A stretch of DNA of 64,000 nt from contig CAZLWE010000006.1 in NCBI GenBank assembly GCA_964562985.1, forward strand, positions 20,991 to 84,990. The letters are read 5' to 3'. The translations under genes and the position numbers were made by a program. Origin of the DNA: an uncultured Acidimicrobiales bacterium (GTDB lineage Bacteria > Actinomycetota > Acidimicrobiia > Acidimicrobiales > SHLQ01). Below the pieces are notes generated by a model. That model did no database searches. It was not told the DNA's origin and worked only from the letters and a program-made list of their open reading frames with translations. Below, one piece after another: positions 17,490 to 37,519 of the stretch (position 1 is the stretch's first letter; each line of letters begins with the position of its first letter).

Positions 17490-19886
17490 CTAGCCTGCCA
17501 CGTCGATACGGACGGCTTGGGATCCCGAAGGCGTGCGTTGGACTTCGAAGCGGCTCGGGATTCGTTCAGCCAATTCGCCGACGTGGGTGATAACCCCGAT
17601 CATCTGCCCTTGCGCGCCGAGTTCTTCGATCGCCGAGGCGACAACGTCGAGGGTCTCGGGGTCGAGTGTGCCGAAGCCCTCGTCGAGGAACATCGACTCA
17701 ATCCGCGGTGCGCCATCCGTCGCGAGGTCGGCGACGTTCTCGCTTAGCGACAGGGCCAACGCCAACGATGCCAAGAAGGTTTCGCCTCCTGACAACGTGC
17801 GAGCGCTTCGGACCTCATCAGCATTTCGGTGATCACGGATCGCAAAGCCAGCGCCATCGGTAACCAACGAGTAGGCGCCGCCAGACAACTCGAGAAGTCG
17901 GTCGGTTGCGCGCTCGGCCAGCGTATGCATGACGTCGGTCATCAACCAGCGTTCGAAACCTGAGGCCCCGAGCAAGCGGCCAAGCTCGCCAGCCACGCTC
18001 GCATCGCGATCGAACTCGGTGATTCGTGCCTCTGCGCCCGCTCGGGCCTCGCGTTCCGATTTGAGCGATGCCAGGCTCGCCGTTGCAGCGCCACGAGCCT
18101 CGGCGAGCCACGTGAGTGGTTCCGCGTTCGCTGCGGCGAGGTCGTTGCCGTCGAGCGACTGCCTCAGAAGGGCCTTGATCGCCTTCTCCGTCTCACCGTG
18201 GTGCCGCTTCGCCTCCTTGAGTTCGGCTTTGGAGTCCGTGGCTTGGCTGGACAGCGTTTTGGCCTTCTCCCGCGCCCATGAAGTAACCGCCTCCCAGTCG
18301 TCGACTATCGAAACCTCACTCGGTGCCGGAGGGTCGAGGCCGATGAGCGCGTCGCGTTGGCTGGTAAACGTGCGCCGGAGCTCGCTCATCTGCTCGTCGA
18401 GTTCTGCGAGTGACTTCTCGATGCCCCGCAGCTTCTCAAGGGCCGCAGTTCCCGTGGATTCGGCCTTCGCCAATGCTTTGCCCCGCGCGATCGCCTCCTT
18501 GAGTTGTGCCTTCGTGTCCGTGGCCTCGGGAGTCCCATCGAGTTCGCGTTCGAGCTCGTCGGCTCGTTCACTGAGGTGTGTTCGCTCAAGCTCAGCCCGA
18601 TCGTGATCACGTTCGGCCTCGCGCTGCTCGTCACGAGCTGAGCCAACAGCTACTTCGGCTTCAACAACAGCTGCTTCTGCGTTGCCCAGGGCGTCGCCAT
18701 GTTCATGGGCAGGAATGCTGTCGACCGTGGCAGTGCACAGCGGACAGGGTTCGCCGGGAACGAGCACATCGACAAATCCCGCTGCACCGACACGTCGGCG
18801 CTGCGTGTCCAGCGTGAGCCGGGCAGCATCGAGCGTGGCCACGGCTGCTTTTGCTAGTGCGGCGGTGGCGTCATGAGCTTTGGCAGTCGCGGCTTCGGTC
18901 TTGACCGCCGCTTTGAGTTCGCGAGCGACTTGCCTCTGCTCGTCGTGGAGGTCCCGGCGCCGTTCGAGTTCGCTGATCGTATCGAGTTCGTCGGCCGCAT
19001 CCCGAGCCTCCTGCAAGGACTGCGCAGCCGTTTCGGCTGCCTCGCGCGCCGAGAGCCTGTCGGCCTCAAGCTTCGCGATTCGCTTTCCGGTCTTCGCCAT
19101 CGCTGACGGTGCCCTGACCGATTTGAGCAGCGACACGTTCTCGGAAGCCTCATCGATCGTGGTCGCTATGGCTTCGACGGCCTCCGCCGCGGTCGTTCGC
19201 AAGTCCACAGCTGCTCGAAGGTCGACGTCGAGTACGTCGAGCTGGGCGAGGAACGCCTGAGCGTTGTCGAGGTGTTCGTCGGTTACGGGTTCGCGCGTCC
19301 CGAGCTGCTCCATCAGGGCGGCGCTCTTCGAGGCAGCGTCCCGGGAACGCTCACGGGCATTGGTGGCCATGGTGCGAAACCGTTCCATCCCGAGCAATCG
19401 GCGCAGCAGCGCTTGGCGAGCCTCGGCATTCTCGGTGAGGAAGCGTGCAAACTCGCCCTGGGGGAGAACCACGGTCTTTGTGAACTGGTCGAAGTTCAGG
19501 CCGAGCAGGCTCTCGACTGCGGCATCGAGTTCGCGGGCGTTGCCGGCCACGACCTCGTCGTTTCGTTCGAGGCGGGCTTCCTTCGTGGATGCCCCCTTCG
19601 CCGTTTTGCGAACCACTCGAGTCGCCGTGTAGTGCTCGGTTCCGATCGTGAAGTCGAGACGAATACGAGCCTCGTTCGCAAGTTGGTGGATGACCGGCGC
19701 AACCAGGTTTGTCGACTTGTAGCGCGCGACCGATCCGTAGAGGGCAAAGGCGATGCCGTCCACGATCGTGGACTTTCCTGCTCCGGTCGGTCCCACGAGC
19801 GCGAAGAGATCGAGACCGTCAAAGTCGATGACGGTCTGTTCACGAAACGCGCCGAAGCCACGCAACTCGAGCTGTGTCGGACGCAC
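17490..19886 (-). CDS. sbcC: SbcC/Rad50-family DNA repair ATPase
   Basis: 798 aa. Walker A is GPTGAGKST. A long coiled coil carries a zinc hook (PGEPCPLC). The signature motif is LSGGETF and Walker B is MFLDEGF. The GTG start overlaps the sbcD stop by 1 nt. Confidence 0.85.
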   Translation of the reverse strand: MRPTQLELRGFGAFREQTVIDFDGLDLFALVGPTGAGKSTIVDGIAFALYGSVARYKSTNLVAPVIHQLANEARIRLDFTIGTEHYTATRVVRKTAKGASTKEARLERNDEVVAGNARELDAAVESLLGLNFDQFTKTVVLPQGEFARFLTENAEARQALLRRLLGMERFRTMATNARERSRDAASKSAALMEQLGTREPVTDEHLDNAQAFLAQLDVLDVDLRAAVDLRTTAAEAVEAIATTIDEASENVSLLKSVRAPSAMAKTGKRIAKLEADRLSAREAAETAAQSLQEARDAADELDTISELERRRDLHDEQRQVARELKAAVKTEAATAKAHDATAALAKAAVATLDAARLTLDTQRRRVGAAGFVDVLVPGEPCPLCTATVDSIPAHEHGDALGNAEAAVVEAEVAVGSARDEQREAERDHDRAELERTHLSERADELERELDGTPEATDTKAQLKEAIARGKALAKAESTGTAALEKLRGIEKSLAELDEQMSELRRTFTSQRDALIGLDPPAPSEVSIVDDWEAVTSWAREKAKTLSSQATDSKAELKEAKRHHGETEKAIKALLRQSLDGNDLAAANAEPLTWLAEARGAATASLASLKSEREARAGAEARITEFDRDASVAGELGRLLGASGFERWLMTDVMHTLAERATDRLLELSGGAYSLVTDGAGFAIRDHRNADEVRSARTLSGGETFLASLALALSLSENVADLATDGAPRIESMFLDEGFGTLDPETLDVVASAIEELGAQGQMIGVITHVGELAERIPSRFEVQRTPSGSQAVRIDVAG

Positions 19887-21034
19887 TAACCCGACACCTC
19901 GGTGTCTTCGAGTAGCCCGATGAACATGTCGGTCAACCGATCGTCGTCGATGCCGAGCTCGTCAAGGTACGCACCGAAGGCATCGACGGGATCTCGACCG
20001 AGGCGGCGCTCTCGCTGCACGGGCGTCGAATCCTCCTCGTGGATGACCTCAATGTCAACGACACCGTCTCCGAGGAGGGCCCGAACATCGTCGGCTAGGT
20101 CCGGCCGACGCGGCTCATCGATCCGAGCGCGAAGCCAGAGACCGTCGATTTCGTCTTTGCTTTCGCGTAGTTGTGTGAGGGTTCCGGAGATGGTCAAGAG
20201 CCCACGACCCGAGCTCAGCGCCACGTTTGTCACCTTGGCCGGCTTGCCGGGTTCAACGTCGACCACATTGACCTGTTTGGTTTGGCGTTGCTCACCAAAA
20301 TCTAATTGCAGAGGTGAACCGCAATAGTGAATCGGTGCGCCGCCAGCGATCTTTTGAGGTCGATGTAGGTGCCCGAGCGCCACATAGGAGGCGGAGGCCG
20401 GAAAGGCCTGGGAGGTGACCGCGTATTCCTCAACGAGGTGAGCGCCTCGTTCGCCGCCACCTGCTGTGGCTCCGTGGACGAAGCCGTGGGCCACGATCAC
20501 GTTTACCGAGTCGCCATTGAAGCCCGCGCTCAGGTGCTCGATGAGTACTCGCATCCGGTCGGCGTACACGTTGGCGTGTTCGAACGCTGCCCCTTCCATG
20601 AGGTCGGCGGCTCGGATGATTCCTCGCTGCGACACGAAGGGGAGTAGTGCCAGGTTGAGGGTCTCGTCTCCGATGGTCAGGCGCTCGAATCCACCCGTGT
20701 CTGGTGAGCGTGCTTCGGTGACGACACGAACATTGCCCAAGGCGAGTAGGGGAGCGACGGCTTTTAGCCGGCGTGGGTTGTCATGGTTCCCGGCGATAAC
20801 GACCACGTGCCCGGCGTGTTCGGCCAGTCCCAGGAGCGTCTCATAGACCAACGCTTCGCTCTCGGGCGTCGGTGCCGCGCTTTCGAACAGATCGCCTGCA
20901 ACGAGTACGACATCGACTTCATCATCCCTTGCGATCTCGGTGATCTCGCCGAGCACAGCCTCATGCTCGTCGTGGCGCGAACGCCCACGAATCGTCTTGC
21001 CGACGTGCCAATCGGAGGTATGCAGCAGGCGCAT
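19886..21034 (-). CDS. sbcD: SbcD/Mre11-family nuclease
   Basis: 382 aa with phosphoesterase motifs LHTSDWHVG, GDLFE, GNHDN and AHG. Confidence 0.9.
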   Translation of the reverse strand: MRLLHTSDWHVGKTIRGRSRHDEHEAVLGEITEIARDDEVDVVLVAGDLFESAAPTPESEALVYETLLGLAEHAGHVVVIAGNHDNPRRLKAVAPLLALGNVRVVTEARSPDTGGFERLTIGDETLNLALLPFVSQRGIIRAADLMEGAAFEHANVYADRMRVLIEHLSAGFNGDSVNVIVAHGFVHGATAGGGERGAHLVEEYAVTSQAFPASASYVALGHLHRPQKIAGGAPIHYCGSPLQLDFGEQRQTKQVNVVDVEPGKPAKVTNVALSSGRGLLTISGTLTQLRESKDEIDGLWLRARIDEPRRPDLADDVRALLGDGVVDIEVIHEEDSTPVQRERRLGRDPVDAFGAYLDELGIDDDRLTDMFIGLLEDTEVSG

Positions 21035-21058
21035 ACCCTGACGCTATCGACTATTGCG

Positions 21059-21667
21059 TCAACGATGAAGGCCCTTGGGGTCTGGGCCGTATTGATTTGA
21101 TCCTCGCTCACCGTCGATCGCCAGCAGGATGAACAAGATCAAGCCCCCGATGTACGGGACGAACGTGATGAAGTACCACTTGCCCGACTTGCCGGTGTCG
21201 TGAAGACGCCGACAGGTGACTGCCAGATTTGGGATCAAGAGTCCCAGAACCGCAATTGCGAGCAAGATTATGGGCAGGACCACGAGCGAAGACTCGCCAT
21301 CGGTTGCTCCTGAGATTGCAAAGATCACTGCAACAGGGACGATTAGCAGGGCCGTGTAGATAAGGGTGAACCACCAAAATTCAGCCCGAGACGCGCGGCC
21401 ATCGAAGGCGGCGTACTTCTCTTTCACCACGTACACGAACCATTCGAGGGGATTCCGATCCACGGGTTCTACCGGGTCCCATTGATGGCCGACCGGTTGG
21501 GGCGGTGGTCCCGGGAACCCGGTCGTTGCTACCGGAGATGGTGGTATCGCCACGATGGGTTGTGGTCCGCTAGCCCAAGCTGCCCCATCCCAGTATCGGT
21601 GGGTGTTTGGAGGGTCGCCTTGTGCTGGATACCAACCCGGGGTTGCTGCTGATCCATCCGGATGCAT
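21059..21667 (-). CDS. DUF2510 N-terminal motif plus a DUF805 membrane domain
   Basis: 202 aa. GWYPAQGDP..HRYWDGAAW is followed by RASRAEFWWF..., RRLHDTGKSGKWYF and multiple TM helices. Confidence 0.7.
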   Translation of the reverse strand: MHPDGSAATPGWYPAQGDPPNTHRYWDGAAWASGPQPIVAIPPSPVATTGFPGPPPQPVGHQWDPVEPVDRNPLEWFVYVVKEKYAAFDGRASRAEFWWFTLIYTALLIVPVAVIFAISGATDGESSLVVLPIILLAIAVLGLLIPNLAVTCRRLHDTGKSGKWYFITFVPYIGGLILFILLAIDGERGSNQYGPDPKGLHR

Positions 21668-21924
21668 ATCTCTCGCCTTTGTTTGCTGCTGACTATATTT
21701 CGGCGCCCGGCCAAGTCGAGTTAAGTGCGACTTGTAGCGATAGCGCCCATTCGCATCTGGTCAACATCGATGTCGGCGCCCACGAGTTCCGCAGGTAGGC
21801 GAGCTTGCGCTGGTCAGTCGGGATCCGTAGGGCCAGCGACCAACCCTGATTCTGCGCGTCTCTGACCGCTCTGTGGGGGTCGTTGCCACGCTAGGCTCCC
21901 CCCATCCGAATCGAGGAGTGTCGA

Positions 21925-22106
21925 TGGGTGAATGGAACGTACTGGCTGGTGCTCGTCAGGACTTTGCGGACATGCTCGACGAATTGTCCGAGGAGCAGCT
22001 TCAAGCGCCCGAGGTACACGGCACCGGGGAGGCCTTGCTAATGGCGCTCCACAACCGCGATGTCAGCGCGGAACTCGATGGCGAAGGCGTCACGCTGCTG
22101 GGCTAG
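21925..22106 (+). pseudogene. Possible internally deleted DinB/mycothiol-dependent-enzyme-family remnant
   Basis: The 59 codons from the ATG read MGEWNVLAGARQDFADMLDELSEEQLQAP (the family's N-terminus). This is joined directly to ..GEALLMALHNRDVSAELDGEGVTLL (the family's C-terminus). Confidence 0.25.
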
Positions 22107-22108
22107 GC

Positions 22109-23791
22109 CTAGAGGCCTTCGAAGGGATCTCCGTCGGCCGATGTGCTCGGCCGCCCTGCTTCGGCTGAGCGGGTAGCCCATGCAGGGAACGGGAACTCGA
22201 CCAGCAAAGGGATTGGTAGACGTGGCTGGCTGAGGTACATGGTGCCCGGCTTGAGGATCGTCGCCCGTTGGCGTTGCACGCCGGGCAAGAACCCGTACTG
22301 GTCGCGTCCTGCTTCGGCGGTGTCGAGTCGGCCGACCACTCGAATCGCGGAGTTTGCGACGACCCGTCGCTCGACTTCGCTTGCGGTCTGTTGGGCTCCG
22401 ATCAAAATGATTCCGAGCGACCGGCCGCGTTCGGCGACATCAAGCAGGATCTCCTTGATGGGGCTGGATGAATCCCGAGGTGCGTACTTGTTGAGTTCGT
22501 CGAGCACGATGAACTGCAACGGTTTGGCGACGCCCGCCGCCTCCTTTGCGTCGAACGCCTGGCGAAGTACCACGCCGACGACAAAGCGCTTCGCCCGGTC
22601 GTGAAGCTGGTGGATGTCGATGACGGTGAGCTGGTTTCGATCGAGGTCGAGCGCGAACTTCGGGGCATCGGCGATGTCGGCGCGGATGAGATGCTCCAGG
22701 TGGTGCACGGAGGAGTTGAGGCGACGCACGAAGGCGTTGATGCTGCCGCCACTCACGGCTCGACCCGTCCATCGCTGGTCGGCAGCGTCGTTTGGGTCAT
22801 CGGGTAGAAGCTTCGACTCGATCACCTCTACAAGCTCTCGGAAGGTACGTACCGTCGTGCCGTCGATTCGAACGGCTCCGTCCGGTGACGGTTCACCGCG
22901 GGTGGCCGCCAGCAACTGCGCGGTGACCGCCTGAACCACAATCGTGTATTGCTGGCGCTCATCTTCGGCATCGGCGAACAGGAAGGGCAGGAGTGCGGAT
23001 CGACAGAAGGTGTCGAGAGTCCAAAAGAATGGGGAGACACCGACGGTGCGTGCTCCGGTGGCCGGTGTGGCGTTCGGGTCGTTACGGCGTGGCGGAGCGA
23101 CGATTCCGACGCTGCTGAACGGGGAGGGCTCCAAACCGAGGTGTGCGTACCGGTCCCGTTGGCCGGGGGTGAGATGCGAGTTTGGTGAGTCGAGGAAGAG
23201 GAGGTCCTCGCCCTTCACGTTGAAGATGACGCCCTTGGTATTTACCGCCTCCGGGCCAAGTACACCCGAATTAAAAAGTGAGTAGAGCAAGAACGTGGCA
23301 TAACTCGTCTTCGTGGCAACTCCGGAGATACCGCTGATGTTGATGTGGGCGCCCTTGGTGCCATCGACGAAGTCGAGGTCGAGGAAGATCGGTTCGTTCT
23401 CTCGACTGAGTCCGGCGGGAAGTCGCCGCTCGACGTTGTCAAAGTCGAGCGCCGCGTCGCGCTCCTCGTCGGTCGCAACCCGTACCGCGGTGCCAGGAAC
23501 CGGAGGGACAAACACCTCGGGGACCACTCGCGTGACCTGAACGAGCGCGGCCTCGGCAACCTCCGCGGGGAGCAGGCCATCTGCGATCAAGAACACGTCG
23601 CTATCGAAGGTCGCCCCTTCATGACGGGCACGGACCTGATTGACGATGCCGTAGATCGAGATCTTCTCGCCTGTCGGCAACACCCGATCCATCGCCACGA
23701 CGTCGTCGAGTTGCAGCACCGAACCCTCGGCAACCGCCACCCAGAACTCGAGCGGCGTCGCGTCGTCGGTTCCCAGTACTCTCCCGATCAC
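22109..23791 (-). CDS. HerA-like (DUF87) hexameric ATPase/helicase
   Basis: 560 aa. The N-terminus is HAS-barrel-like (MIGRVLG...LEFWV...VAMDR...IYGIV). The P-loop region reads AHINISGISGVATKTS and Walker B is LQFIVLDELNKY. Confidence 0.65.
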   Translation of the reverse strand: MIGRVLGTDDATPLEFWVAVAEGSVLQLDDVVAMDRVLPTGEKISIYGIVNQVRARHEGATFDSDVFLIADGLLPAEVAEAALVQVTRVVPEVFVPPVPGTAVRVATDEERDAALDFDNVERRLPAGLSRENEPIFLDLDFVDGTKGAHINISGISGVATKTSYATFLLYSLFNSGVLGPEAVNTKGVIFNVKGEDLLFLDSPNSHLTPGQRDRYAHLGLEPSPFSSVGIVAPPRRNDPNATPATGARTVGVSPFFWTLDTFCRSALLPFLFADAEDERQQYTIVVQAVTAQLLAATRGEPSPDGAVRIDGTTVRTFRELVEVIESKLLPDDPNDAADQRWTGRAVSGGSINAFVRRLNSSVHHLEHLIRADIADAPKFALDLDRNQLTVIDIHQLHDRAKRFVVGVVLRQAFDAKEAAGVAKPLQFIVLDELNKYAPRDSSSPIKEILLDVAERGRSLGIILIGAQQTASEVERRVVANSAIRVVGRLDTAEAGRDQYGFLPGVQRQRATILKPGTMYLSQPRLPIPLLVEFPFPAWATRSAEAGRPSTSADGDPFEGL

Positions 23792-28178: not shown

Positions 28179-28378
28179 TCACTGCATCTTGGCCCGAGTA
28201 GCCGATCGACTGGCGTATTCGATGAGGAATTGCTCCTGAAGGGGAGAGAAATTTGAGCCTTCCGGCCCGGCTCGGTCCGACCGGTTGTGCCGATGAGAGT
28301 AGAAGATGTTTCTTGTCAACCAGCGATCGACAGCGTCTAGTGTGCGAGCTCACACTCCCGGAGATAGGACGCGCCATC

Positions 28379-29128
28379 ATGCGTGACCTCTCGATCGTCG
28401 TCCCGGCCTACAACGAAGCTGAGCGGATCGGTGAAACGCTCGAAGCGATCGCCGCGTTTCTCAACGGGCGAGATCAAAATGATGAGGTCATCGTCGTGGA
28501 CGATGGTTCCGAGGACCAGACCGCAGAGGTAGTTGACGGCTATCAACACCTGTTCCGCAACTTGCGCGTCGTTCGATCGCCTCGCAACGTTGGCAAGGGG
28601 CATGCGGTGCGTCAAGGAATGCTCGTGGCGACAGGTCGCTACCGGCTCTTCACCGATGCGGACAATTCGACCGACATCGGTGAGTTCGACCGCCTCATGG
28701 CCGCAGCTGACCAGGAACCGATCATGCCCGCGGTGATCATCGGTTCTGTCGCGCTGCACGAGTCAAACGTCACCGTCCGCCAGCCCGGGATTCGTTCGCA
28801 GCTGGGTGTCTTGGCGAACCGGATCATCCAGTGGCTGATCCTCCCGGGTATCCAAGACACTCAACGAGGGTTCAAAATATTTACTGGAGAAGCGAGTGAC
28901 GCGGTCTTTCGTCGCTGCACCAGTGACGGATGGGCCTTTGACGTCGAGGCACTCGCGATCGCGCAGGCGCTGGGCTACCACATTCTTGAGGTTCCCATCA
29001 CGTGGGAGCACCGGGAAGACTCGCGAGTGCAACCGAGCGCCTACGTGAGTTCGATGATCGATGTGTTCAGGATCAAGCGGCGTATCGACCGCGATGAGGA
29101 GATGGCGCTACCCTCCGAGCATGGCTGA
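28379..29128 (+). CDS. Family 2 glycosyltransferase (dolichyl/polyprenyl-phosphate hexosyltransferase-like)
   Basis: The start is moved to ATG 28379 (MRDLSIVVPAYNEAERI). Other motifs are VIVVDDGSEDQT, FTDADNS and QRGFK. Confidence 0.8.
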   Translation: MRDLSIVVPAYNEAERIGETLEAIAAFLNGRDQNDEVIVVDDGSEDQTAEVVDGYQHLFRNLRVVRSPRNVGKGHAVRQGMLVATGRYRLFTDADNSTDIGEFDRLMAAADQEPIMPAVIIGSVALHESNVTVRQPGIRSQLGVLANRIIQWLILPGIQDTQRGFKIFTGEASDAVFRRCTSDGWAFDVEALAIAQALGYHILEVPITWEHREDSRVQPSAYVSSMIDVFRIKRRIDRDEEMALPSEHG

Positions 29129-30970: not shown

Positions 30971-31447
30971 TTAGCGCGACTTCTCGAAGAGGACTTTTCG
31001 AATGATGTCGCTTGCGGTGAACCTGCCGATCGGACCCGTCGAGTAGAGCGACTGGACGATCTCACCATCGGGGTTAAGTAGCCAACCGGTGCCGTGGAGG
31101 AACTCCCTGTCACCAGCCTGGTAGGGAGCGCCGGTGTCTGCCGAGACTGTCGGAGCGTCGAGCTCTCCCCACATGGGGAACCCGACGTGCAGCCCCTCCC
31201 GGAGTTTGGCGACCGATTCGACGGAGTCGACGGAGCCTCCTGCGACTTTGATCCCGATGTCCATCAGTGGCAAAGCGTGCGTTGCGAAGTCAACCAACTG
31301 TTGACGACAGTATGGTCACCAATCGCCTCGGTAGAGCAGGACCGCTGCCCAATGTCCGGCGACGGAGGCGACCATGTCGTCCGCTTCGCCATCATGACGT
31401 ACGCCAACGATTGACGGCAGTTTCGAACCGTTCTCCAAAATGTGCAT
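30971..31447 (-). CDS. Peroxiredoxin-like / redoxin (AhpC-TSA family) protein with an in-frame UGA (candidate selenocysteine) at the first position of CxxC
   Basis: Track ORFs 31316..31534 and 30971..31297 share one frame. Read-through gives MHILENGSKLPSIVGV..DG...WAAVLLYRGDW-[TGA 31318-31316]-PYCRQQLVDF...GWLLNPDGEIV. ATG 31447 is the preferred start. Confidence 0.6.
31289..31305 (-). promoter_or_regulatory. SECIS-like hairpin 10 nt downstream of the in-frame UGA
   Basis: On the mRNA: GUCAAC-AGUUG-GUUGAC, a perfect 6-bp stem with G and U in the 5-nt loop. Confidence 0.35.
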
Positions 31448-31545: not shown

Positions 31546-33024
31546 ATGGATCACGACCCTTCGGTGAGCATTGATGTTGAGGAAACGGTCGACGGCGATT
31601 CTGCCGGTGGATCTTCTCGACTAGCGGTCATCGGAGGAGTGGCGGTGTTGATCATCGCCGTCGTGGTTGCGTTCTTCGCTCTCCGGCCAAGCGATGGAGA
31701 AACCGCTGCGGGGACAGCCCGCGAAGAGGGCGAAGAAACCGCTGACGTGACGGACTCCGATCCGGCTGCAGACGAGACCGCGACCACCGCGCCAGCGGGT
31801 CCTCCGCAGTTTGAGTCTCTTCCCATTGTCGAAGCGGTCCGAGCCGGTTCGGGCTTCTTGGGACTCATCACTTCATCGGGCAATCCGGTGCTCTTCGTTA
31901 CTGAAGATGGCGTTTCCTGGAGCGAGCTCGAGACCTCGGTCGTCGATCCACAGGGGATCGGAAGTTGGTCAAACCTGATCGCCTTCGACGGGGGGTTTGC
32001 GATGCTGCGCACCAGCGGCGATCTCTCCACATCAGCGGGACTCACCGAGAGGTTCATCTCGGTCGACGGCGTCGAATGGGAGCTCGATTCGAACTTCCAA
32101 CCCCTAGACAATCCCGGCGACTCCTTCTTCCCGGAGTTCCATTTGCCCGATGTGTTCGGGTTCGTTGCGTTCTCCACCGAGATACCGGCTGCCCCCCTCG
32201 GCCCACTCTTCGAGCAGGTGCTCGCCGAGGGTGCCCCGATCGACCCGTCGACGATCTGCTTCTTCGAAGAGTTCAATGCCGACCAATTTGAGGTCTTCCC
32301 CTGCGATACCGACGGCGAGACGTCAACCGGAGTCGCGACGGTGATCGCCACCGAGGACTTGGTTGACCCGGAGTCATTCGGTGCTGTCCAACAATGTGCA
32401 GCGTTCATCCGATCGCTGGGATCGACTCGAAGTGCGGCGATGGTCCTCCAGCGCTCGGGTGAGAGCGAAACGGTCGAAATCGACGGGTCATTCTCGACGT
32501 TCCAGAAATCGCTGCCGTCGGGCGTCATCGCCTCGGTCTTCGTCGGCGACCGCCTGTTTGCCGGATCGGCGGCCTGCGATGACTTCGCGGGTTCGGTCCC
32601 CGAGTTCCAGGCTGCAGAGATCGAACTCGTCGACCTCGACGGTACGGTTCGCCGCATCCCACTGCCGCCAGAGGTGCCACAGCCTCCAGCAACTCCTGCG
32701 GCTCCGTTCGCAACCGACACTGAACTCTTCGTCGTGCTCGAACAGTCGATCTGGCGACTCGACCTCGCAACCGAAGAGTGGACGATGGTCGTCGAACTGC
32801 CACCCGAGGCACTACGGCCCGGACGGTTCGGGTTTGCCGACGGCACTCGAGCGGTCAGCTTGGGCAGTGACGTCTTGTTCAGTGTCGACCTGGGGAGTGG
32901 GGAAGTCACGGAGACCCCAATCGAGATCGGCCGGTTCCCACAGATCCTCGAAGTCGACAGCGAGTTCATACTTGCACGGGACGAGGTCGAGGACGGCAGG
33001 CTCGACGTCGTTCCGCTTCGGTAG
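31546..33024 (+). CDS. Paralogue 1 of a four-gene family: N-terminally anchored protein with a PS(D/E)GETAAGT juxtamembrane motif and an Asp-box-like ectodomain
   Basis: The start is moved to ATG 31546 (MDHDPSVSIDVEE). The TM helix is LAVIGGVAVLIIAVVVAFFA, followed by LRPSDGETAAGT. Other motifs are TEDGVSWSEL, SVDGVEWELD and, near the C-terminus, SIWRLDLATEEWT. Confidence 0.7.
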   Translation: MDHDPSVSIDVEETVDGDSAGGSSRLAVIGGVAVLIIAVVVAFFALRPSDGETAAGTAREEGEETADVTDSDPAADETATTAPAGPPQFESLPIVEAVRAGSGFLGLITSSGNPVLFVTEDGVSWSELETSVVDPQGIGSWSNLIAFDGGFAMLRTSGDLSTSAGLTERFISVDGVEWELDSNFQPLDNPGDSFFPEFHLPDVFGFVAFSTEIPAAPLGPLFEQVLAEGAPIDPSTICFFEEFNADQFEVFPCDTDGETSTGVATVIATEDLVDPESFGAVQQCAAFIRSLGSTRSAAMVLQRSGESETVEIDGSFSTFQKSLPSGVIASVFVGDRLFAGSAACDDFAGSVPEFQAAEIELVDLDGTVRRIPLPPEVPQPPATPAAPFATDTELFVVLEQSIWRLDLATEEWTMVVELPPEALRPGRFGFADGTRAVSLGSDVLFSVDLGSGEVTETPIEIGRFPQILEVDSEFILARDEVEDGRLDVVPLR

Positions 33025-33072
33025 CCGCAGCGCCGCCATCGACGAATCCACGAGCGCCCCTACTATGGCGCC

Positions 33073-34620
33073 ATGGAGAAGGTGAGCGCGGTTCGAGTGG
33101 AGGTCGACGGCCATGTCGACGCACCGACACTCGCCGAACCCGTAGCGCCGCAGCCGTCCGGGTCTCGTCGCTGGATGTTCGTCCTCGGTGGCATCGCCAT
33201 CGTTGTGCTCGTCGTTGCGTTGGTTGCGTTGCAACCAACCGAGGGAGAGACGGCCGCGGGGACCGAACGCGGCACGACAACAACCGTTGCCCCTACGACC
33301 ACCACCGCAACCACGGTCACCACTCCGATCGTTCCAACGGTTCGCCGAGCAGTCGACCGGTCGGCGTCGAACGTCGGCGTTTTCTCCATGGTCCGCGACG
33401 ACAGCGGATTCTTCGCGCTCGGGCTGTCGGAAGGATTGACGCTCTTCCGGTCCTTGCGCGGTCTTGAGTGGCAGGAGGTCGCGATCGAAGTTTCCGAAGC
33501 GGCGGGTCCCGAGGAGGGTACGTGGACGGATTACCTACAGCTGATCGCGGTCGAGGATGGATTCGCCGTTCTGCGCGTTCGAGAGGACTTCACCCAGATC
33601 CCTCGGACGGTGGAGGTCGACCGGTTGTTTTCGGCCGATGGAGTGGTCTGGGACGTTGACACCTCGTTCGAGTCGATAGCCGCAGAACGAGGCGACGGCT
33701 GGGGGTTTGTGCACTTCGCCGATGCAGTCGGAGTCACCCAGGTCGACCGCGCCGTAGATCTTGAGGCGCTGCTCACGGGTGTGTTTACCGAGAGCGCTGG
33801 TGTTGATCCGGCAAACGTTTGCTGGATAGAACCTGTTGGGCTCAACCAGATCCGGACACTCCCGTGCGAGGACGCGACTGTCAGCTTCGGCACGGACATC
33901 ACCGCAACGGACCTTCGAGAACCGGAACGCTTCGACGCTCTCATCGAGTGCGCTGTAGCCATAAATATCGCGGACCCGCTCGTCAGCTCAACGGTGATTC
34001 GAGGTCGCGCCGGCACGCGTGTGCTCATGTCTGAGGATGGCCCTTTCGACCACATCGAGATAGGCGATGGCGCGATCGCGGCGCTTTCGTTGGGGAACAT
34101 CTACACAACAGACCAAGTCGACAGCACCGCGTGTGATTCCTTCGACGGCGGCTTTCCGGATTTGGTGACTCCAGCGGTTGAGCTCACGCTCGCCAATGGT
34201 GAGCAACGACGAGTGCCGCTACCCGATGACGCGTTGCCACAAGACAGAGATGCCGACCCCGAGTTGGATCGATGGGCTTCACCACGACTTCATGGCTCGG
34301 GTGACCGGCTCTTTCTCCTCGCTGGCACAGGAGTATGGAGCCTCGATCAGGCAACCGATTCCTGGATCGAGCTGGTAGATCTCCCCGTACCGCTCACCGG
34401 GTTTGTCGATTATGAGTTCTCCAGTGCCGAACAAGTCGTCGGGTTGAGCAATGACAGCATCGTCGTGGCTGACCTGGTCGAAGGAACCGTCGACAGGTTT
34501 GAGCATGGTGAAGACCTTGATGGTTGGGCGCGCTTGGTTTACGCCGACGATGACCTCTTCTTGATGGAGGTTGAGGACGGCGCGACAACCACCGTCGTGG
34601 CTGTCGATCTGCCGCAATAG
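33073..34620 (+). CDS. Paralogue 2 of the family
   Basis: MEKVSAVRVEV; SRRWMFVLGGIAIVVLVVALVA; LQPTEGETAAGT; a T-rich linker; LRGLEWQEV; SADGVVWDVD; GVWSLDQATDSWI. Confidence 0.7.
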   Translation: MEKVSAVRVEVDGHVDAPTLAEPVAPQPSGSRRWMFVLGGIAIVVLVVALVALQPTEGETAAGTERGTTTTVAPTTTTATTVTTPIVPTVRRAVDRSASNVGVFSMVRDDSGFFALGLSEGLTLFRSLRGLEWQEVAIEVSEAAGPEEGTWTDYLQLIAVEDGFAVLRVREDFTQIPRTVEVDRLFSADGVVWDVDTSFESIAAERGDGWGFVHFADAVGVTQVDRAVDLEALLTGVFTESAGVDPANVCWIEPVGLNQIRTLPCEDATVSFGTDITATDLREPERFDALIECAVAINIADPLVSSTVIRGRAGTRVLMSEDGPFDHIEIGDGAIAALSLGNIYTTDQVDSTACDSFDGGFPDLVTPAVELTLANGEQRRVPLPDDALPQDRDADPELDRWASPRLHGSGDRLFLLAGTGVWSLDQATDSWIELVDLPVPLTGFVDYEFSSAEQVVGLSNDSIVVADLVEGTVDRFEHGEDLDGWARLVYADDDLFLMEVEDGATTTVVAVDLPQ

Positions 34621-34702
34621 GTCGATCCGTCACCTTGTGAGCTGGTGAACCTTTCGGGGCTGAACCCTGGTGGATAGATCACGAGCTCTAAAATCTCCGC
34701 CC

Positions 34703-36130
34703 ATGGCTCCCGGCAGCTCAGTTCGCGTGGAATTTGAGGATTCGACGCTCAACGCGGGCACGGAGCCGGAGGTTGGCGCCCCAAATCCGAGCCCACCCAA
34801 CCGGCGCCGGGCAGTCGCAGGAGCGGTCGTCGCTGCTCTAGTGCTCGTGGTCGGGCTTCTGTCTTTCCGCCCGTCCGAGGGGGAGACCGCAGCGGGAACC
34901 GAGCGGGCGGCGCCAACGACCACCATTGAGCCGTCGACAACGACTTCGGTAACCCCATCAACCACGACAACCACGCGGGTGGAGGCTGCGCCCGTGGCGC
35001 CGGTGAACGCGTTTTTCGAAAGTGATGTCGTTCGTGGCGAGGTTGGCTTCCTTGCCCTGCTCGACTCGACGAGCGACAACGATTTCGCACCATCGCTCTA
35101 CCACTCGAATGACGGGTTGGAGTGGGAGCTAGTCGATACCGAACTCGCTCCGTTCGTCGCGAAAGGCGATGACATCACGATCGAGTACTCCCACCTGATC
35201 GCGTCGGGGGAAGGGTTCGGGTTATTGCGAACCCGGACCGTGGTGGATCGGTTGAATCCGACGTTTCCTGCTGCGAGCGTGACGGAGCGTCTGGTGTCGA
35301 TCGACGGCCAACGTTGGGCATTAGACGAAGGCTTCACTTCTCTGTTGCACAACGAGCTTGCACGACCTGCGTTTCACGTAGCGGACTCCTTTGGCTTCAT
35401 CACCGACGAAGTGATCGCGCGGGCAAGTGCTGGCGACTGTGAGGGGCAAGCCGAAGAAGCCGCCGATCGCTTTGGCGAACGATCATTACTCATTCACCGG
35501 CTCGGGCAGAGCGAACCCGAAGAGATTCAAGTGTCGCTGTCGGCTGGGCACACCCGACTATCCAACGCCTCCGTTGCGTCCTTTGTGCCGAACGGTCTGG
35601 AATTCGAGGCTCCGTTCGTGTGCCAACGCTTTCCGGGGATCAATCCTGAATTCCCGGCTCCCACCGTGCAACTGATCGCCGCCGACAACGCTGTGCGCCA
35701 GATCGGGCTACCCGCAGAGGTAACGGAGGGCGGCTTGGCGAATTCACCGGATGTCTCGCTTGTAGAAACCGAAGCTGGCCTCGTTTTGGTGCTCGATCGA
35801 TCGATTTGGCTTCTCGATACGGAAAGCGAGGAGTGGACAAGGCTGCTCGAAATACCTGTCGGCCCACTGAACATCCTCGACTATCAGGTCACAGATTCCG
35901 GCGACGTTGTCGCGTTGCTTAGCGCCGATGCGGCGGTGATCATCGATCCCGCGACAGCAGAATCACGATCGGTCAACCTGGCAGGCACAACTGGTTTGCC
36001 GATAATCCTCTACGCCGACGATGAGTTGGTGGTGACGCCAGGAGCGCTTCGTGAGGACGTAACCCGGACGGTTCCGCTGACCAATCCGCAACCAATCCGA
36101 GGCACGTTCCCAGGCGAAGCGGCAGAGTAG
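34703..36130 (+). CDS. Paralogue 3 of the family
   Basis: ATG 34703 (MAPGSSVRVEF); NRRRAVAGAVVAALVLVVGLLS; FRPSEGETAAGT; a T/P/S linker; SNDGLEWELV; SIDGQRWALD; SIWLLDTESEEWT. Confidence 0.7.
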   Translation: MAPGSSVRVEFEDSTLNAGTEPEVGAPNPSPPNRRRAVAGAVVAALVLVVGLLSFRPSEGETAAGTERAAPTTTIEPSTTTSVTPSTTTTTRVEAAPVAPVNAFFESDVVRGEVGFLALLDSTSDNDFAPSLYHSNDGLEWELVDTELAPFVAKGDDITIEYSHLIASGEGFGLLRTRTVVDRLNPTFPAASVTERLVSIDGQRWALDEGFTSLLHNELARPAFHVADSFGFITDEVIARASAGDCEGQAEEAADRFGERSLLIHRLGQSEPEEIQVSLSAGHTRLSNASVASFVPNGLEFEAPFVCQRFPGINPEFPAPTVQLIAADNAVRQIGLPAEVTEGGLANSPDVSLVETEAGLVLVLDRSIWLLDTESEEWTRLLEIPVGPLNILDYQVTDSGDVVALLSADAAVIIDPATAESRSVNLAGTTGLPIILYADDELVVTPGALREDVTRTVPLTNPQPIRGTFPGEAAE

Positions 36131-36133
36131 TCC

Positions 36134-37519
36134 ATGGCTTCCGGACGCTCGGTGCGCGTGGAGATTGGAGAAGGTGGTTCCGACTCGTCGGACGCGCCTG
36201 AACCCGTTGCACTCGAGTCCAGGCGAGACAAGCGGGCGGTTCTGATTGGGGCGGTGCTGACACTTGGGCTCGTTGCAGCGGCGCTCTTGGTCTTTCGCCC
36301 CTCCGAAGGCGAAACCGCCGCCGGTACCCAACGACAGACGACAACGTCTACAACGGTCTCTCCCGCCACGTCCTTGGCATCAACGCCCACGGAGACGGTG
36401 GCCCCTGCCATCCCAGCCGCCTTCGCCGGTAGCGATGTCGTTTGGGGCCCATCAGGCTTTTTGGCGCTGCTACCCACCGGAAGCATTGGTTCGCTTCCCG
36501 CTCTCTACCGGTCCGACGATGGCATCGACTGGGAACACGTAGAGCTAGAGATTCCACCGATCGATGAAACCGGAATCGACTTTGTCGATTACTCAAATCT
36601 GATTGCTGCAGGGGGAGAGAATTTCGCGATTTTGCGGACCGGGTTTAGCAACGAAGGTCAAGGGCCTCGTCGGGCTCCTCGTATAACCGAGCGCCTGGTT
36701 TCGGCAGACGGGCAGCGTTGGGTCCTCGATGGCGCAGTCACCACGGTGCAACATCAGACCCTTGCGTCGCCCTCGTTCCATGTTTCCAACGCGTTCGGTT
36801 TCTCGATCGGCGCCGTCGTCTTGCAAGGGACCTCCGGCGTGGGCTGCGAGGCATTGCTAGGTAGCGAAGTGAACCCGTTCGCGAACCCGCAACTTATTCA
36901 CCGCTTTGGACGTCTGGAGCCGACCGAAGTGCGTGCATCGTCTGGCGTCGCGCACACCCAGCTCAGTGGAGCACGAATCGCGTCATTCACGTCGAATGAG
37001 ATACGTGTGGAGACATTGGCAGCGTGTGGTGTCTCTCCGGGCGATCTCGATTCAGTTCGTCTTGCGTCCATAGAAATCATCACGCCTGACGATGCTGTCA
37101 GACAAATTCCACTTCCCGAGACGGTCATCGATGCCGGAGACTTGGGAGATTGGCCCCAGCCTTCGCTATTTGGAATCGACGATGGACTGCTCGCAGTCCT
37201 CGGACGCTCGGTGTGGCGCCTCGAGGTGGATTCCGAGGAGTGGACCTGGCTACTGGATCTGCCTGCGGAGGCCGACTCGATTCGCGACTATCAGATCGTC
37301 GATGGGCGCTATGTGGTCGGGTTGGCCGAGGCGGTCGTCCTTCGCGCCGACCTCGAACTGGGTGAGGTAGCAACCAACACCATCTCCACGGGCCTCAACC
37401 CTGGATCCGAGATCTTGTACGCCGATAGCGAGATCATCATCACCGAAAGCCTCGACCAAAACGAAGCCACAACCCGCCTGCCTTTACCGACCCCGTTCTT
37501 CCCAGAAGACGAGGAGTAG
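36134..37519 (+). CDS. Paralogue 4 of the family
   Basis: It starts 3 nt after paralogue 3. MASGRSVRVEI; RRDKRAVLIGAVLTLGLVAAALLV; FRPSEGETAAGT; SDDGIDWEHV; SADGQRWVLD; SVWRLEVDSEEWT. Confidence 0.7.
   Translation: MASGRSVRVEIGEGGSDSSDAPEPVALESRRDKRAVLIGAVLTLGLVAAALLVFRPSEGETAAGTQRQTTTSTTVSPATSLASTPTETVAPAIPAAFAGSDVVWGPSGFLALLPTGSIGSLPALYRSDDGIDWEHVELEIPPIDETGIDFVDYSNLIAAGGENFAILRTGFSNEGQGPRRAPRITERLVSADGQRWVLDGAVTTVQHQTLASPSFHVSNAFGFSIGAVVLQGTSGVGCEALLGSEVNPFANPQLIHRFGRLEPTEVRASSGVAHTQLSGARIASFTSNEIRVETLAACGVSPGDLDSVRLASIEIITPDDAVRQIPLPETVIDAGDLGDWPQPSLFGIDDGLLAVLGRSVWRLEVDSEEWTWLLDLPAEADSIRDYQIVDGRYVVGLAEAVVLRADLELGEVATNTISTGLNPGSEILYADSEIIITESLDQNEATTRLPLPTPFFPEDEE

What the first reader, a model, noticed from the sequence alone, without database searches (positions are those of the whole stretch)
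31546..37519. Head-to-tail array of four divergent paralogues with an invariant juxtamembrane motif P(S/T)(E/D)GETAAGT and Asp-box-like repeats
Four consecutive plus-strand genes (492, 515, 475 and 461 aa; spacers of 48, 82 and 3 nt) share one architecture:
- A short N-terminus with S-V-R-V-E (SVSIDVEE / SAVRVEV / SSVRVEF / RSVRVEI).
- A basic patch that is twin-arginine-like in three of the four (SRRW, NRRR, SRRDKR).
- One hydrophobic helix.
- Immediately after it, LRPSDGETAAGT / LQPTEGETAAGT / FRPSEGETAAGT / FRPSEGETAAGT.
- A Thr/Pro/Ser-rich linker.
- A ~380-aa domain with recurring (S/D)xDGxxW(E/D) motifs (TEDGVSWSEL, SNDGLEWELV, SDDGIDWEHV, S(A/I/V)DG(Q/V)xW) and a C-terminal (S/G)(I/V)W(R/L/S)L(D/E)...(E/S)W(T/I) block.

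The ectodomains are strongly diverged. The 10-residue juxtamembrane motif is nevertheless kept with different synonymous codons in each copy (for example GAGGGAGAGACGGCCGCGGGGACC versus GAAGGCGAAACCGCCGCCGGTACC). This points to purifying selection on the peptide rather than recent gene conversion. The pattern suggests a processing, modification or recognition site, such as a protease or glycosylation site, on a family of surface-exposed beta-propeller-like proteins. I recognise no named family.
Basis: seen in the sequence. Interest (0 to 1): 0.72.

Follow-up and report, generated by a model that had tools for sequence, protein, structure and literature searches.

The report
Tandem stalked beta-propeller surface protein family
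Four neighbouring genes encode old, diverged copies of an unnamed membrane-anchored beta-propeller surface protein, found only in uncultured marine Acidimicrobiales, that keeps short peptide motifs on both sides of its membrane helix; the role of those motifs is unknown.

Summary
Four plus-strand genes (492, 515, 475 and 461 aa) are 26-41% identical in the ectodomain. All four keep P-[ST]-[DE]-GETAAGT directly after a ~20-residue membrane helix, with 4-5 synonymous differences per 21 nt.

The motif is the local form of a wider family signature: M-x4-10-SVR[VI]E, then (D)AP.P, a basic residue, the helix, then LRP-x2-G-x2-A-[AD]-G-[TS]-x-R-x-(A)(P/T)TTT. An exhaustive profile search finds 251 cluster representatives. 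None carries a Pfam or NCBIfam name. Every relative in a named genome belongs to one of four uncultured Acidimicrobiales MAGs.

Tandem arrays are the rule, with 3, 4 or 9 copies. The duplications predate speciation. AlphaFold gives a helix, a small hairpin at the motif, a Thr/Pro stalk and a 6-7-bladed propeller with no close solved relative.

Tat targeting is not supported. The helix looks like an anchor, although A-x-G|T would also fit a signal-peptidase site.

Best reading: stalked, N-in/C-out surface binding proteins that share an N-terminal handle recognised by common, unidentified machinery. The motifs' function remains inferred. This is an uncharacterised family of a familiar kind, of moderate interest.

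The parts
31546..33024 (+). Paralogue 1 (492 aa), orthology group A. It has SVSID in place of SVRVE, an acidic linker and four Cys.
   Evidence: family HMM E=1.8e-118
33073..34620 (+). Paralogue 2 (515 aa), orthology group B. It has a Thr-rich stalk and four Cys.
   Evidence: family HMM E=3.5e-123
34703..36130 (+). Paralogue 3 (475 aa), orthology group C. The ATG at 34703 is preferred over the GTG at 34670 because it places SVRVE at residues 6-10, as in the orthologues.
36134..37519 (+). Paralogue 4 (461 aa), orthology group D. It starts 3 nt after the stop of paralogue 3.
31561..31575 (+). Cytoplasmic N-terminal motif of P1 (SVSID, residues 6-10)
   Evidence: family-wide S 90%, V 99%, R 99%, E 88%
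33088..33102 (+). Cytoplasmic N-terminal motif of P2 (AVRVE)
34718..34732 (+). Cytoplasmic N-terminal motif of P3 (SVRVE)
36149..36163 (+). Cytoplasmic N-terminal motif of P4 (SVRVE)
31621..31683 (+). Membrane helix of P1 (residues 26-46, 21 apolar residues)
   Evidence: family median apolar span 21 residues
33172..33231 (+). Membrane helix of P2 (residues 34-53)
34811..34867 (+). Membrane helix of P3 (residues 37-55)
36236..36295 (+). Membrane helix of P4 (residues 35-54). AlphaFold places a helix at residues 30-53.
31684..31722 (+). Juxtamembrane motif of P1 (RPSDGETAAGTAR)
33232..33270 (+). Juxtamembrane motif of P2 (QPTEGETAAGTER)
34868..34906 (+). Juxtamembrane motif of P3 (RPSEGETAAGTER)
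36296..36334 (+). Juxtamembrane motif of P4 (RPSEGETAAGTQR). The model predicts a small hairpin here (bridge E60/Q66, pLDDT 70-80).
36335..36430 (+). Thr/Ser/Pro/Ala-rich stalk of P4 (about residues 68-99), predicted disordered. The equivalent stretches in P2 and P3 are 63-74% T+S+P+A; the one in P1 is acidic.
36431..37489 (+). Beta-propeller ectodomain of P4 (about residues 100-452), with some 28 strands, which suggests 6-7 blades. It includes the S-x-D-G-x-x-W boxes at 36512-36532 and 36701-36721, the Cys238/Cys298 pair and the W361...W370 block at 37211-37243.

Best explanation
The four genes are old paralogues of an uncharacterised family restricted to one lineage (uncultured marine Acidimicrobiales). 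They encode single-pass membrane proteins with the N-terminus inside the cell and the C-terminus outside.

Each protein has:
- an acidic cytoplasmic tail of about 35 residues that opens with SVR[VI]E, followed by (D)AP.P;
- a hydrophobic anchor helix of about 20 residues whose sequence is free to vary;
- a membrane-proximal external motif, LRP-x2-G-x2-A-[AD]-G-[TS]-x-R, probably a short hairpin;
- a Thr/Pro-rich stalk, probably O-glycosylated;
- a 6-7-bladed, disulfide-containing beta-propeller.

Shown by tool results: the architecture, the membrane orientation, the fold, the age of the duplications, purifying selection and the narrow taxonomic range.

Inferred:
- The helix is an uncleaved anchor that holds the propeller above the cell wall on its stalk.
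- The propellers are diversified ligand-binding modules.
- The two motifs flanking the membrane form a common 'handle'. One shared, still unidentified partner (an insertion, modification or scaffolding factor) would recognise it on every paralogue, which would explain why the motifs stay fixed while everything around them drifts.
For: Architecture and fold:
- AlphaFold2 with a 73-sequence alignment gives mean pLDDT 84.7: helix 30-53, a bridge at residues 60/66, low confidence for 68-99, and about 28 strands for 100-450 (first model).
- Foldseek returns only propellers such as sortilin, TolB, Sec12 and kelch domains.

Orientation and anchor:
- The 10 residues before the helix are net positive and the 10 after it net negative.
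- The median apolar span is 21 residues.
- Two Cys are about 97-99% conserved in the ectodomain.

Motif conservation across the family:
- 96 of 120 tails carry the SVRVE-type motif, and several of the remainder start at 'MRVEV', which points to miscalled starts.
- 113 of 129 carry the loose juxtamembrane motif.
- Both motifs rank among the four most conserved 12-residue windows.

Family specificity:
- In 200 kb of related loci, 29 of 31 [SA]VR[VI]E hits sit at the N-terminus of family genes.
- Across 185,579 species genomes, P-x-[DE]-G-[DE]-TAAGT preceded by a hydrophobic helix occurs only in this family.

Helix sequence is unconstrained:
- Between the window and sister contig L086, the P4 tail spacer plus helix is replaced (42-58% nt identity against about 96% elsewhere; dS 0.90 against 0.13).
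- The codons of both motifs at the borders of that segment are unchanged.

Paralogues behave as independent units:
- Copy number is 3, 4 or 9, a decayed copy survives in L001, and some proteins carry two propellers behind a single N-module.
- Ectodomain dN/dS is 0.15-0.26, so the ectodomains are under purifying selection.
Against: - No partner has been identified. Neighbouring genes differ between clades: sdh next to the near clade; SodN/SodX and PIG-L in L076; nitroreductase, PIG-L, KatG and Fur in L083.
- No ligand or activity can be read from the propeller.
- A62-x-G64|T65 satisfies the (-3,-1) rule for signal peptidase I, so cleavage cannot be excluded by sequence.
- Glycosylation of the stalk is inferred from composition alone.
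- Some paralogues in the nine-gene array have a degenerate juxtamembrane motif, so it is not indispensable in every copy.
Confidence: 0.5

Rival explanations
1. The whole N-terminal module is an unusually long, cleavable Sec signal peptide. SVRVE would be a conserved n-region motif, comparable to YSIRK-G/S or ESPR signal-peptide motifs. P56 and G59 would be helix breakers, and A62-x-G64|T65 the signal peptidase I site. The mature protein would then begin T-x-R-Q-A-P-T-T-T and be released or held in the wall.
For: - A62 (95%) and G64 (90%) are the two most conserved residues of the motif, and they sit at -3 and -1 relative to the conserved T/S65.
- P56 (96%) and G59 (55%) lie at -9 and -6.
- From my own knowledge: secreted actinobacterial glycoproteins often start with a Thr/Pro-rich segment.
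Against: - The apolar span has a median of 21 residues, with an interquartile range of 20-22. From my own knowledge, that is the length of an anchor rather than of an h-region.
- The signal would be about 64 residues long with a net acidic n-region.
- Position -2 is most often Asp.
- Conservation extends to T65 and R67 on the mature side and to R55, which signal peptidase I does not require.
- A stalk placed directly after the site makes more sense for a tethered protein.
- No YSIRK or ESPR Pfam model matches.
Confidence: 0.2
2. The juxtamembrane motif and the TTT run that follows are a determinant for O-glycosylation at the membrane surface. This could be Pmt-type O-mannosylation during export, or a dedicated glycosyltransferase. 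The motif would be conserved because it positions the first glycosylated Thr/Ser.
For: - T/S65 and T71-T73 are conserved at fixed spacing.
- Thr flanked by Ala, Gly or Pro matches the propensities reported for actinobacterial O-glycosites (PMC6593405, read).
- GT2, or GT87 plus GT2, lies a few genes upstream in the near clade.
Against: - Actinobacterial Pmt has no strict consensus sequence (PMC6593405), so it does not explain a near-invariant 10-residue motif.
- The GT2 gene is missing at that position in sister contig L086, and GT87 is missing from the window.
- These glycosyltransferases are absent from the distant arrays.
- This idea does not explain the cytoplasmic SVRVE motif.
Confidence: 0.1
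3. The paralogues assemble through their conserved N-modules into one hetero-oligomeric surface complex of fixed composition, in the way the six Mce proteins of a mycobacterial mce operon do.
For: - The genes sit in tight, probably translationally coupled arrays, with a 3-nt spacer here and 4-nt overlaps in L083.
- Orthology groups keep their order across genomes.
Against: - Copy number varies (3, 4, 9), and orthology groups are gained and lost.
- The helix sequence can be replaced wholesale, which argues against specific helix-helix packing.
- Variants with two propellers on one N-module exist.
Confidence: 0.08
4. The proteins are sensors processed by regulated proteolysis. A site-1 cut at the juxtamembrane motif would be followed by intramembrane cleavage that releases the SVRVE tail into the cytoplasm, as happens with N-in/C-out anti-sigma factors such as RsgI or RseA.
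For: - The orientation, the conserved external juxtamembrane element and the conserved cytoplasmic N-terminal element match the layout of such factors (my own knowledge of the RsgI and RseA systems).
Against: - No sigma factor or regulator gene lies next to any array.
- The tail is a disordered peptide of about 35 residues, not an anti-sigma domain, and has no Pfam hit.
- Nine sensors in one operon would be unusual.
Confidence: 0.07
5. The shared motif is only a leftover of recent duplication or gene conversion and has no function of its own.
For: The genes are adjacent paralogues, which is the setting where gene conversion is common.
Against: - There are 4-5 synonymous differences per 21 nt between copies.
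- Each paralogue has its own orthologues in other MAGs.
- The motif persists in relatives about 20-25% identical.
- It is the longest invariant run, with a shuffle probability of 0.0003.
Confidence: 0.01

Closest known systems
BNR/Asp-box and kelch-type beta-propeller ectodomains (sortilin Vps10 domain, Ycf48, sialidases, TolB, Keap1)
   Same: - The fold is a beta-propeller.
- S-x-D-G-x-x-W hairpins recur in the first two blades.
- The C-terminal blades show weak kelch-like sequence signal. Foldseek E-values are 1e-6 to 1e-7. The family profile matches designed kelch proteins at 1.8e-9 and sialidases at 0.2-0.55.
   Different: - TM-scores reach only 0.2-0.5, and sequence identity is 8-15%.
- The box is one residue shorter than the canonical S-x-D-x-G-x-T-W.
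- No BNR, kelch or PQQ Pfam model reaches threshold on the window proteins.
- No catalytic residues can be assigned.
Conserved signal-peptide motifs of surface-protein families (YSIRK-G/S in Gram-positive cocci, ESPR in autotransporters)
   Same: A short motif is conserved in the N-terminal export or anchor region across many paralogous surface proteins, while the passenger domains diverge (comparison from my own knowledge).
   Different: - Those motifs sit on many unrelated passenger domains and belong to cleaved signals.
- Here the module is found on a single ectodomain family.
- The hydrophobic segment has the length of an anchor.
- A second motif lies on the outer side of the membrane.
- No Pfam match to those signals was found.
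N-in/C-out anti-sigma factors with Thr/Pro linkers and external sensor domains (RsgI family)
   Same: The layout is shared: a short conserved cytoplasmic N-terminus, one membrane helix, a conserved external juxtamembrane element, a Thr/Pro linker, a variable external binding domain and multiple paralogues per genome (my own knowledge).
   Different: There is no anti-sigma domain and no adjacent sigma factor gene. The paralogues lie in one tandem operon rather than being scattered in sigma/anti-sigma pairs.
Mycobacterial mce operons (six tandem paralogues, each with an N-terminal membrane helix)
   Same: Both are tandem, tightly packed arrays of diverged paralogues that share an N-terminal anchor (my own knowledge).
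   Different: Copy number is variable, the fold is different (propeller, not an MCE domain), and there are no YrbE-type permease or ATPase genes alongside.
O-mannosylated Thr/Pro-rich regions of actinobacterial exported proteins
   Same: A Thr/Pro/Ala-rich disordered stretch lies directly outside the membrane. The residue propensities resemble reported glycosites (PMC6593405).
   Different: No glycosylation data exist for this family. Known Pmt substrates share no fixed motif such as A-[AD]-G-T-x-R.

Membership tests
BNR/Asp-box repeat proteins (Pfam BNR PF02012, BNR_2 PF13088) | Repeated 8-residue Asp-box S-x-D-x-G-x-T-W that BNR profile models detect | tested here: not met
   The boxes are 7 residues long, S-x-D-G-x-x-W, and occur twice per protein. 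No BNR model matches at E<=1 on the four proteins or at E<=0.01 on 73 relatives. The PDB profile search gives only E=0.2-0.55 to sialidases.
BNR/Asp-box repeat proteins | Beta-propeller fold | tested here: met
   The AlphaFold2 model has pLDDT of about 90 or more across most of residues 100-450 (dips at about 171-180, 221-250 and 291-310). All Foldseek matches are propellers, with sortilin ranked first.
Kelch-repeat propellers (Pfam Kelch_1-6) | Kelch motif that Pfam models detect above threshold | tested here: inconclusive
   There are no hits on the window proteins. One double-length relative, P0156, hits Kelch_1 at 8e-6. The family profile matches designed kelch proteins (SAKe6) at 1.8e-9, summed over blades.
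Tat (twin-arginine) signal peptides | [ST]-R-R-x-F-L-K consensus directly before the hydrophobic region, conserved among homologues | tested here: not met
   RR lies near the helix in 26 of 124 family members and none matches [ST]RRx[FLIVM][LIVM]. Only a single basic residue is conserved, often as R-W or K-W.
Sec signal peptide cleaved by signal peptidase I | Small residues at -3 and -1 after a helix-breaking residue | tested here: met
   A62 is 95% conserved and G64 90%, and they precede T/S65. P56 and G59 lie upstream.
Sec signal peptide cleaved by signal peptidase I | Short h-region (about 7-15 residues) and a short, positively charged n-region | tested here: not met
   The apolar span has a median of 21 residues (10th-90th percentile 19-25). 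The tail is about 35 residues long and net acidic, with positive charge only next to the helix.
Sec signal peptide cleaved by signal peptidase I | Actual cleavage of the precursor | not testable with these tools
   This needs N-terminal sequencing or proteomics.
Bacterial lipoproteins | Lipobox ending in Cys at the end of the hydrophobic region | tested here: not met
   No Cys occurs in the first 230 residues of any of the four proteins.
Sortase substrates (LPXTG/LAXTG) | C-terminal motif followed by a hydrophobic helix and a basic tail | tested here: not met
   The C-termini are polar or acidic (for example ...PLPTPFFPEDEE) with no hydrophobic segment. The conserved motif lies after an N-terminal helix instead.
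Membrane-bound anti-sigma factors (RsgI, RskA, RseA types) | N-terminal anti-sigma domain and an adjacent sigma factor gene | tested here: not met
   No Pfam or NCBIfam domain is found in the tail. The tail is predicted disordered. No sigma factor gene lies within 10 kb in five different contexts.
Anti-phage defence systems (PADLOC) | Match to a defence-system protein model | tested here: not met
   The only hit is a low-complexity match of P2 residues 21-92 to PD-T4-6, at E=5.8e-4.

The most novel reading that the evidence does not exclude
The module SVR[VI]E - anchor helix - LRPxxGxxA[AD]G[TS]xR is a new, lineage-specific N-terminal sorting or processing signal with its own dedicated, unidentified enzyme or receptor. 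It would be an N-terminal counterpart of pairs such as LPXTG/sortase or GlyGly-CTERM/rhombosortase. That enzyme or receptor would process, modify or position a whole multigene family of propeller proteins on the surface of marine Acidimicrobiales.
Probability: 0.18. Interest if true: 0.7.

Novelty: new variant of a known kind. Interest (0 to 1): 0.42.

Why it matters
Marine Acidimicrobiales are abundant and uncultured, and almost nothing is known about their cell surface.

This family occupies 6-16 kb per locus. It is under purifying selection and has no annotation. It is therefore a candidate major surface component: a possible ligand or substrate receptor, cell-wall scaffold or phage target.

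The paired motifs on the two faces of the membrane, kept across more than 200 diverged clusters while the helix between them can be swapped, give a sharp and testable handle for finding the machinery that inserts, modifies or organises surface proteins in this lineage. If a dedicated partner exists, it would be a new protein-sorting system.

If not, the result is still a usable family definition for annotating what are now 'hypothetical proteins'.

Tried and rejected
- Pfam, NCBIfam and PADLOC scans of the four proteins, and Pfam scans of 73 + 8 relatives, gave only sub-threshold or low-complexity hits such as New_glue, PDGLE, TraP and PD-T4-6.
- The word-indexed homologue search is nearly blind to this family. 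It returned 10, 18 and 2 hits, none with a source name.
- I looked for the motif on other ectodomains. Two of the three DNA-pattern scans of 185,579 species genomes returned 67 and 3 stretches. Every match that follows a hydrophobic helix, or that belongs to the family, lies in the same Acidimicrobiales family; the rest are chance matches in other frames or contexts.
- The third scan returned 4 stretches: three in Acidimicrobiales MAGs, and one in a Chloroflexia MAG (L088) that the family HMM rejects.
- The search for related loci failed with the broad alignment because no stretch was conserved enough. With a distant-clade alignment it found nothing in JGI metagenome contigs.
- The search for conserved neighbours found none shared between clades. 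The sdhCAB adjacency holds only in the near clade. GT87 and GT2 are variable even between sister contigs.
- Promoter and terminator scans did not exceed the shuffle expectation.
- Literature searches for the motif strings, and for Acidimicrobiia with propeller paralogues, returned nothing.
- Diversifying selection on the ectodomains is rejected at whole-domain level, with dN/dS of 0.15-0.26.
- I considered G|T autoproteolysis of the kind seen in Ntn-hydrolases and set it aside, because the motif lies in a short hairpin next to a disordered stalk, not inside a folded domain.


Full report

Yes. The ORF list gives four consecutive plus-strand ORFs: 31546-33024 (492 aa), 33073-34620 (515 aa), 34703-36130 (475 aa) and 36134-37519 (461 aa). 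P1 runs from the ATG inside a longer GTG frame. P3 runs from its ATG, and a GTG 33 nt upstream is possible. The spacers are 48, 82 and 3 nt. Independent gene callers on public contigs that carry the same locus report the same four lengths.

In the four-way alignment 55 of 556 columns are invariant. The longest invariant run is GETAAGT (7 columns), and the next longest is 3. Shuffling the ungapped columns gives a run of 7 or more in 0.03% of trials.

| Region | Pairwise identity between the four paralogues |
|---|---|
| Juxtamembrane motif | 69-92% |
| Ectodomain | 26-41% |
| Membrane helix | 16-42% |
| Linker | 13-42% |

The 21 nt encoding GETAAGT differ at 4-5 positions between any two copies, always synonymously. 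The two S/T-x-[DR]-G-x-x-W boxes, the [IV]W.L[DE]...W block and the Thr/Pro/Ser linkers are all present. The linker of copy 1 is acidic instead.

**2. How far does it extend beyond this window?**

The word-indexed protein search finds only 10 relatives. None has a name and all come from metagenomes or MAGs. An exhaustive profile search of 1.84 billion cluster representatives finds 251 at E<=1e-3 and 52 at E<=1e-30.

Reading their N-termini shows that the window's motif is the local form of a family signature: M-x4-10-S-V-R-[VI]-E-[VLFI]-[ED] ... (D)-A-P-x-P ... [RK]-(W) - about 20 apolar residues - L-R-P-x-x-G-x-[AT]-A-[DA]-G-[TS]-x-R-x-(A)-(P/T)-T-T-T.

- Among representatives with a hydrophobic helix, 96 of 120 with a cytoplasmic tail carry the SVRVE-type motif. 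Several others begin 'MRVEV' or 'MRIEI', which looks like a start called inside the motif.
- 113 of 129 carry the loose juxtamembrane motif, and 74 of 129 carry the strict P-x5-A-[AD]-G-[TS]-x-R.
- In a 73-sequence alignment the most conserved 12-residue windows are, in order, the N-terminal motif, the two S.DG..W boxes and the juxtamembrane motif. Two Cys, at 238 and 298, are nearly invariant.
- One caveat: those 73 sequences were chosen for having the N-terminal motif, so that motif's rank is partly by construction. The juxtamembrane motif's rank is not.

**3. Taxonomy and genomic organisation**

Four scans of one genome per species (185,579 species) recover true family members from only four genomes, all labelled uncultured Acidimicrobiales MAGs. 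Every other pattern match is a chance hit without a preceding helix or without an HMM match. Two of these MAGs come from study SRP114822, a marine pelagic monitoring programme (PMC6049030).

Tandem arrays are a family trait:

| Locus | Family genes in tandem | Source |
|---|---|---|
| Window | 4 (no further copy elsewhere in the 64 kb) | |
| L001, L005, L007 | 4 each | |
| L075 | 3 | |
| L076, L077 | at least 4 each | |
| L083-L085 | 9, over 16 kb | |

In L083-L085 several genes overlap by 4 nt. One 1010-residue protein there carries a single N-module followed by two propellers.

A neighbour-joining tree places each window paralogue with its own orthologues from other MAGs and shows that gene order is kept. 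The duplications therefore predate the divergence of these genomes. Groups are also gained and lost. L001 lacks the paralogue-2 orthologue but retains a decayed 'MWTRSVRVEVDV...' remnant in the gap.

Neighbouring genes are not conserved between clades:
- The near clade sits beside sdhCAB and a PALP/DUF4916 block.
- L076 sits near Ni-SOD, its protease and PIG-L.
- L083 lies between a nitroreductase and PIG-L, an SDR, KatG and Fur.

No sigma factor, protease, sortase or transporter travels with the arrays.

**4. Anatomy of one protein**

AlphaFold2 with the 73-sequence alignment gives mean pLDDT 84.7 and pTM 0.76 for paralogue 4. An earlier 11-sequence model agrees with it. The deeper model shows:
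- residues 1-29 at low confidence;
- a helix at residues 30-53;
- a small beta-bridge between E60 and Q66, at pLDDT 70-80. This is a hairpin formed by the motif itself, with P56 ending the helix and G59 and G64 at the turns;
- a lower-confidence stalk at residues 68-99;
- about 28 strands between residues 100 and 450, mostly at pLDDT 90 or more, which suggests 6-7 blades.

Foldseek against the PDB returns only propellers (sortilin, TolB, Sec12, kelch domains, Ycf48), with TM-scores of 0.2-0.5 and 8-15% identity. A profile search of PDB sequences gives weak kelch-blade matches (designed SAKe6 proteins, 1.8e-9), one carbohydrate-binding protein (0.0023) and sialidase Asp-box regions (0.2-0.55). 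No Pfam or NCBIfam model reaches threshold. The S-x-D-G-x-x-W box is one residue shorter than the canonical Asp-box.

**5. Orientation and export route**

The 10 residues before the helix are net positive and the 10 after it net negative. The apolar span has a median of 21 residues. The conserved Cys lie in the ectodomain. This points to an N-in/C-out protein exported by Sec.

The twin-arginine idea does not survive family comparison. RR occurs in 26 of 124 members and none fits the Tat consensus.

**6. Selection**

Against the sister contig L086 (95.8% nt identity over the array), ectodomain dN/dS is 0.15-0.26. That is purifying selection, somewhat more relaxed than in most of the neighbouring genes compared (0.02-0.13; the GDSL lipase gave 0.31), and it is not diversifying selection.

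One segment stands out. Positions 36166-36293, which encode the tail spacer and membrane helix of paralogue 4, are only 42-58% identical, with dS of 0.90 against 0.13 in the rest of the gene. The boundaries fall just after the SVRVE codons and just before the RPSEGETAAGT codons, which are identical in the two contigs.

This is a natural swap experiment. The helix and spacer are replaceable, and the two flanking motifs are not.

**7. What it most likely is and does**

Shown by tool results:
- This is a lineage-restricted, unnamed family of single-pass, N-in/C-out proteins.
- Each has a disordered acidic tail, an anchor-length helix, a conserved membrane-proximal hairpin motif, a Thr/Pro stalk and a disulfide-containing propeller.
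- The genes sit in old tandem arrays under purifying selection.

Inferred (confidence about 0.5):
- The helix is an uncleaved anchor.
- The stalk lifts the propeller through the wall and is probably O-glycosylated. Its composition matches reported actinobacterial glycosite propensities (PMC6593405).
- The propellers are diversified binding modules.
- The two motifs are a shared handle recognised by one common partner on each face of the membrane.

Variable copy number, a replaceable helix and double-propeller variants argue for independent units rather than one fixed hetero-oligomer.

**8. Rivals**

- **(a) Cleavable extended signal peptide (0.2).** A62-x-G64|T65 fits the (-3,-1) rule, with P56 and G59 upstream. 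Against it: the 21-residue apolar span, a 64-residue length, frequent Asp at -2, and conservation reaching T65 and R67.
- **(b) Glycosylation determinant (0.1).** The conserved T/S65 and the TTT run fit. Against it: Pmt has no strict consensus, the nearby glycosyltransferase genes are variable, and the cytoplasmic motif stays unexplained.
- **(c) Fixed hetero-oligomer (0.08).** See section 7.
- **(d) Regulated proteolysis or signalling (0.07).** The layout resembles RsgI-type factors, but there is no anti-sigma domain and no sigma factor gene.
- **(e) Duplication leftover (0.01).** Refuted by sections 1-3.

**9. Comparison with known families and novelty**

The ectodomain works like a BNR- or kelch-type propeller, but it fails the profile tests for membership in either. 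The N-terminal module resembles conserved signal-peptide motifs such as YSIRK or ESPR in concept only. It is tied to a single ectodomain family, has an anchor-length helix and has motifs on both membrane faces.

I found no description of it in Pfam, NCBIfam, PADLOC or the searched literature. I rate it a new variant of a known kind: a stalked, membrane-anchored propeller surface protein family.

Its interest lies in three things: the paired trans-membrane-flanking motifs, the size of the arrays, and the uncultured marine host. The most novel reading not excluded is a new N-terminal sorting or processing signal with a dedicated partner. I put that at about 0.18.

Noticed in passing
window 36166-36293 (compared with L086 10033-10160): The tail spacer and membrane helix of paralogue 4 are replaced like a cassette. 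This segment is 42-58% identical at nt level inside an array that is otherwise about 96% identical. The boundaries fall at the conserved SVRVE and RPSEGETAAGT codons. The source of the replacement sequence is unknown.
   Followed up: partly
L001 9567-10000 (remnant starts near 9645): The 434-nt gap where the paralogue-2 orthologue is missing still encodes 'MWTRSVRVEVDV...' followed by stop codons. This is a decayed family member and shows birth-and-death turnover in the array.
   Followed up: partly
L083 306-16470 (also L084, L085): Nine consecutive family genes span 16 kb, several with 4-nt overlaps. One is a 1010-aa protein with a single N-module and two propellers. All nine keep SVR[VI]E, but three have a degenerate juxtamembrane motif.
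   Followed up: yes
window 31316-31447 (-) and 30971-31264 (-): Two small ORFs (43 and 97 aa) run divergently from paralogue 1 and are conserved in L001, L075, L080 and L086. The 97-aa ORF has no Pfam or NCBIfam match; the 43-aa ORF was not scanned. The 97-aa protein has dN/dS of 0.02 against L086, so it is a real gene of unknown function.
   Followed up: partly
window 28253-29128 (+): A GT2 glycosyltransferase gene is present here but absent from the same position in sister contig L086. More distant relatives (L001, L075) have GT87 plus GT2 at this position. This makes a small variable glycosylation island next to the array.
   Followed up: partly
window 17490-23791 (-): A 560-aa ORF (22109-23791) has no Pfam or NCBIfam hit but contains a Walker-B-like FIVLDELNKY. 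It lies upstream of a DUF805/DUF2510 protein, a metallophosphoesterase (19886-21034) and an SbcC/Rad50-like ATPase (17490-19886). This may be a DNA-repair or defence-like cluster.
   Followed up: no
L089 3-1478: A second contig of the same MAG that carries L007 (binchicken_co258_108) holds another family member, so one genome can contain more than one locus.
   Followed up: no
P0160, P0161 (metagenome proteins): These weakly related propellers are longer. P0160 has five Asp-box-like motifs and a lipoprotein-type N-terminus (LVAC|QGDDGSAADTT...) whose post-Cys segment resembles the juxtamembrane motif (DDGSAAD). The resemblance may be coincidental.
   Followed up: no
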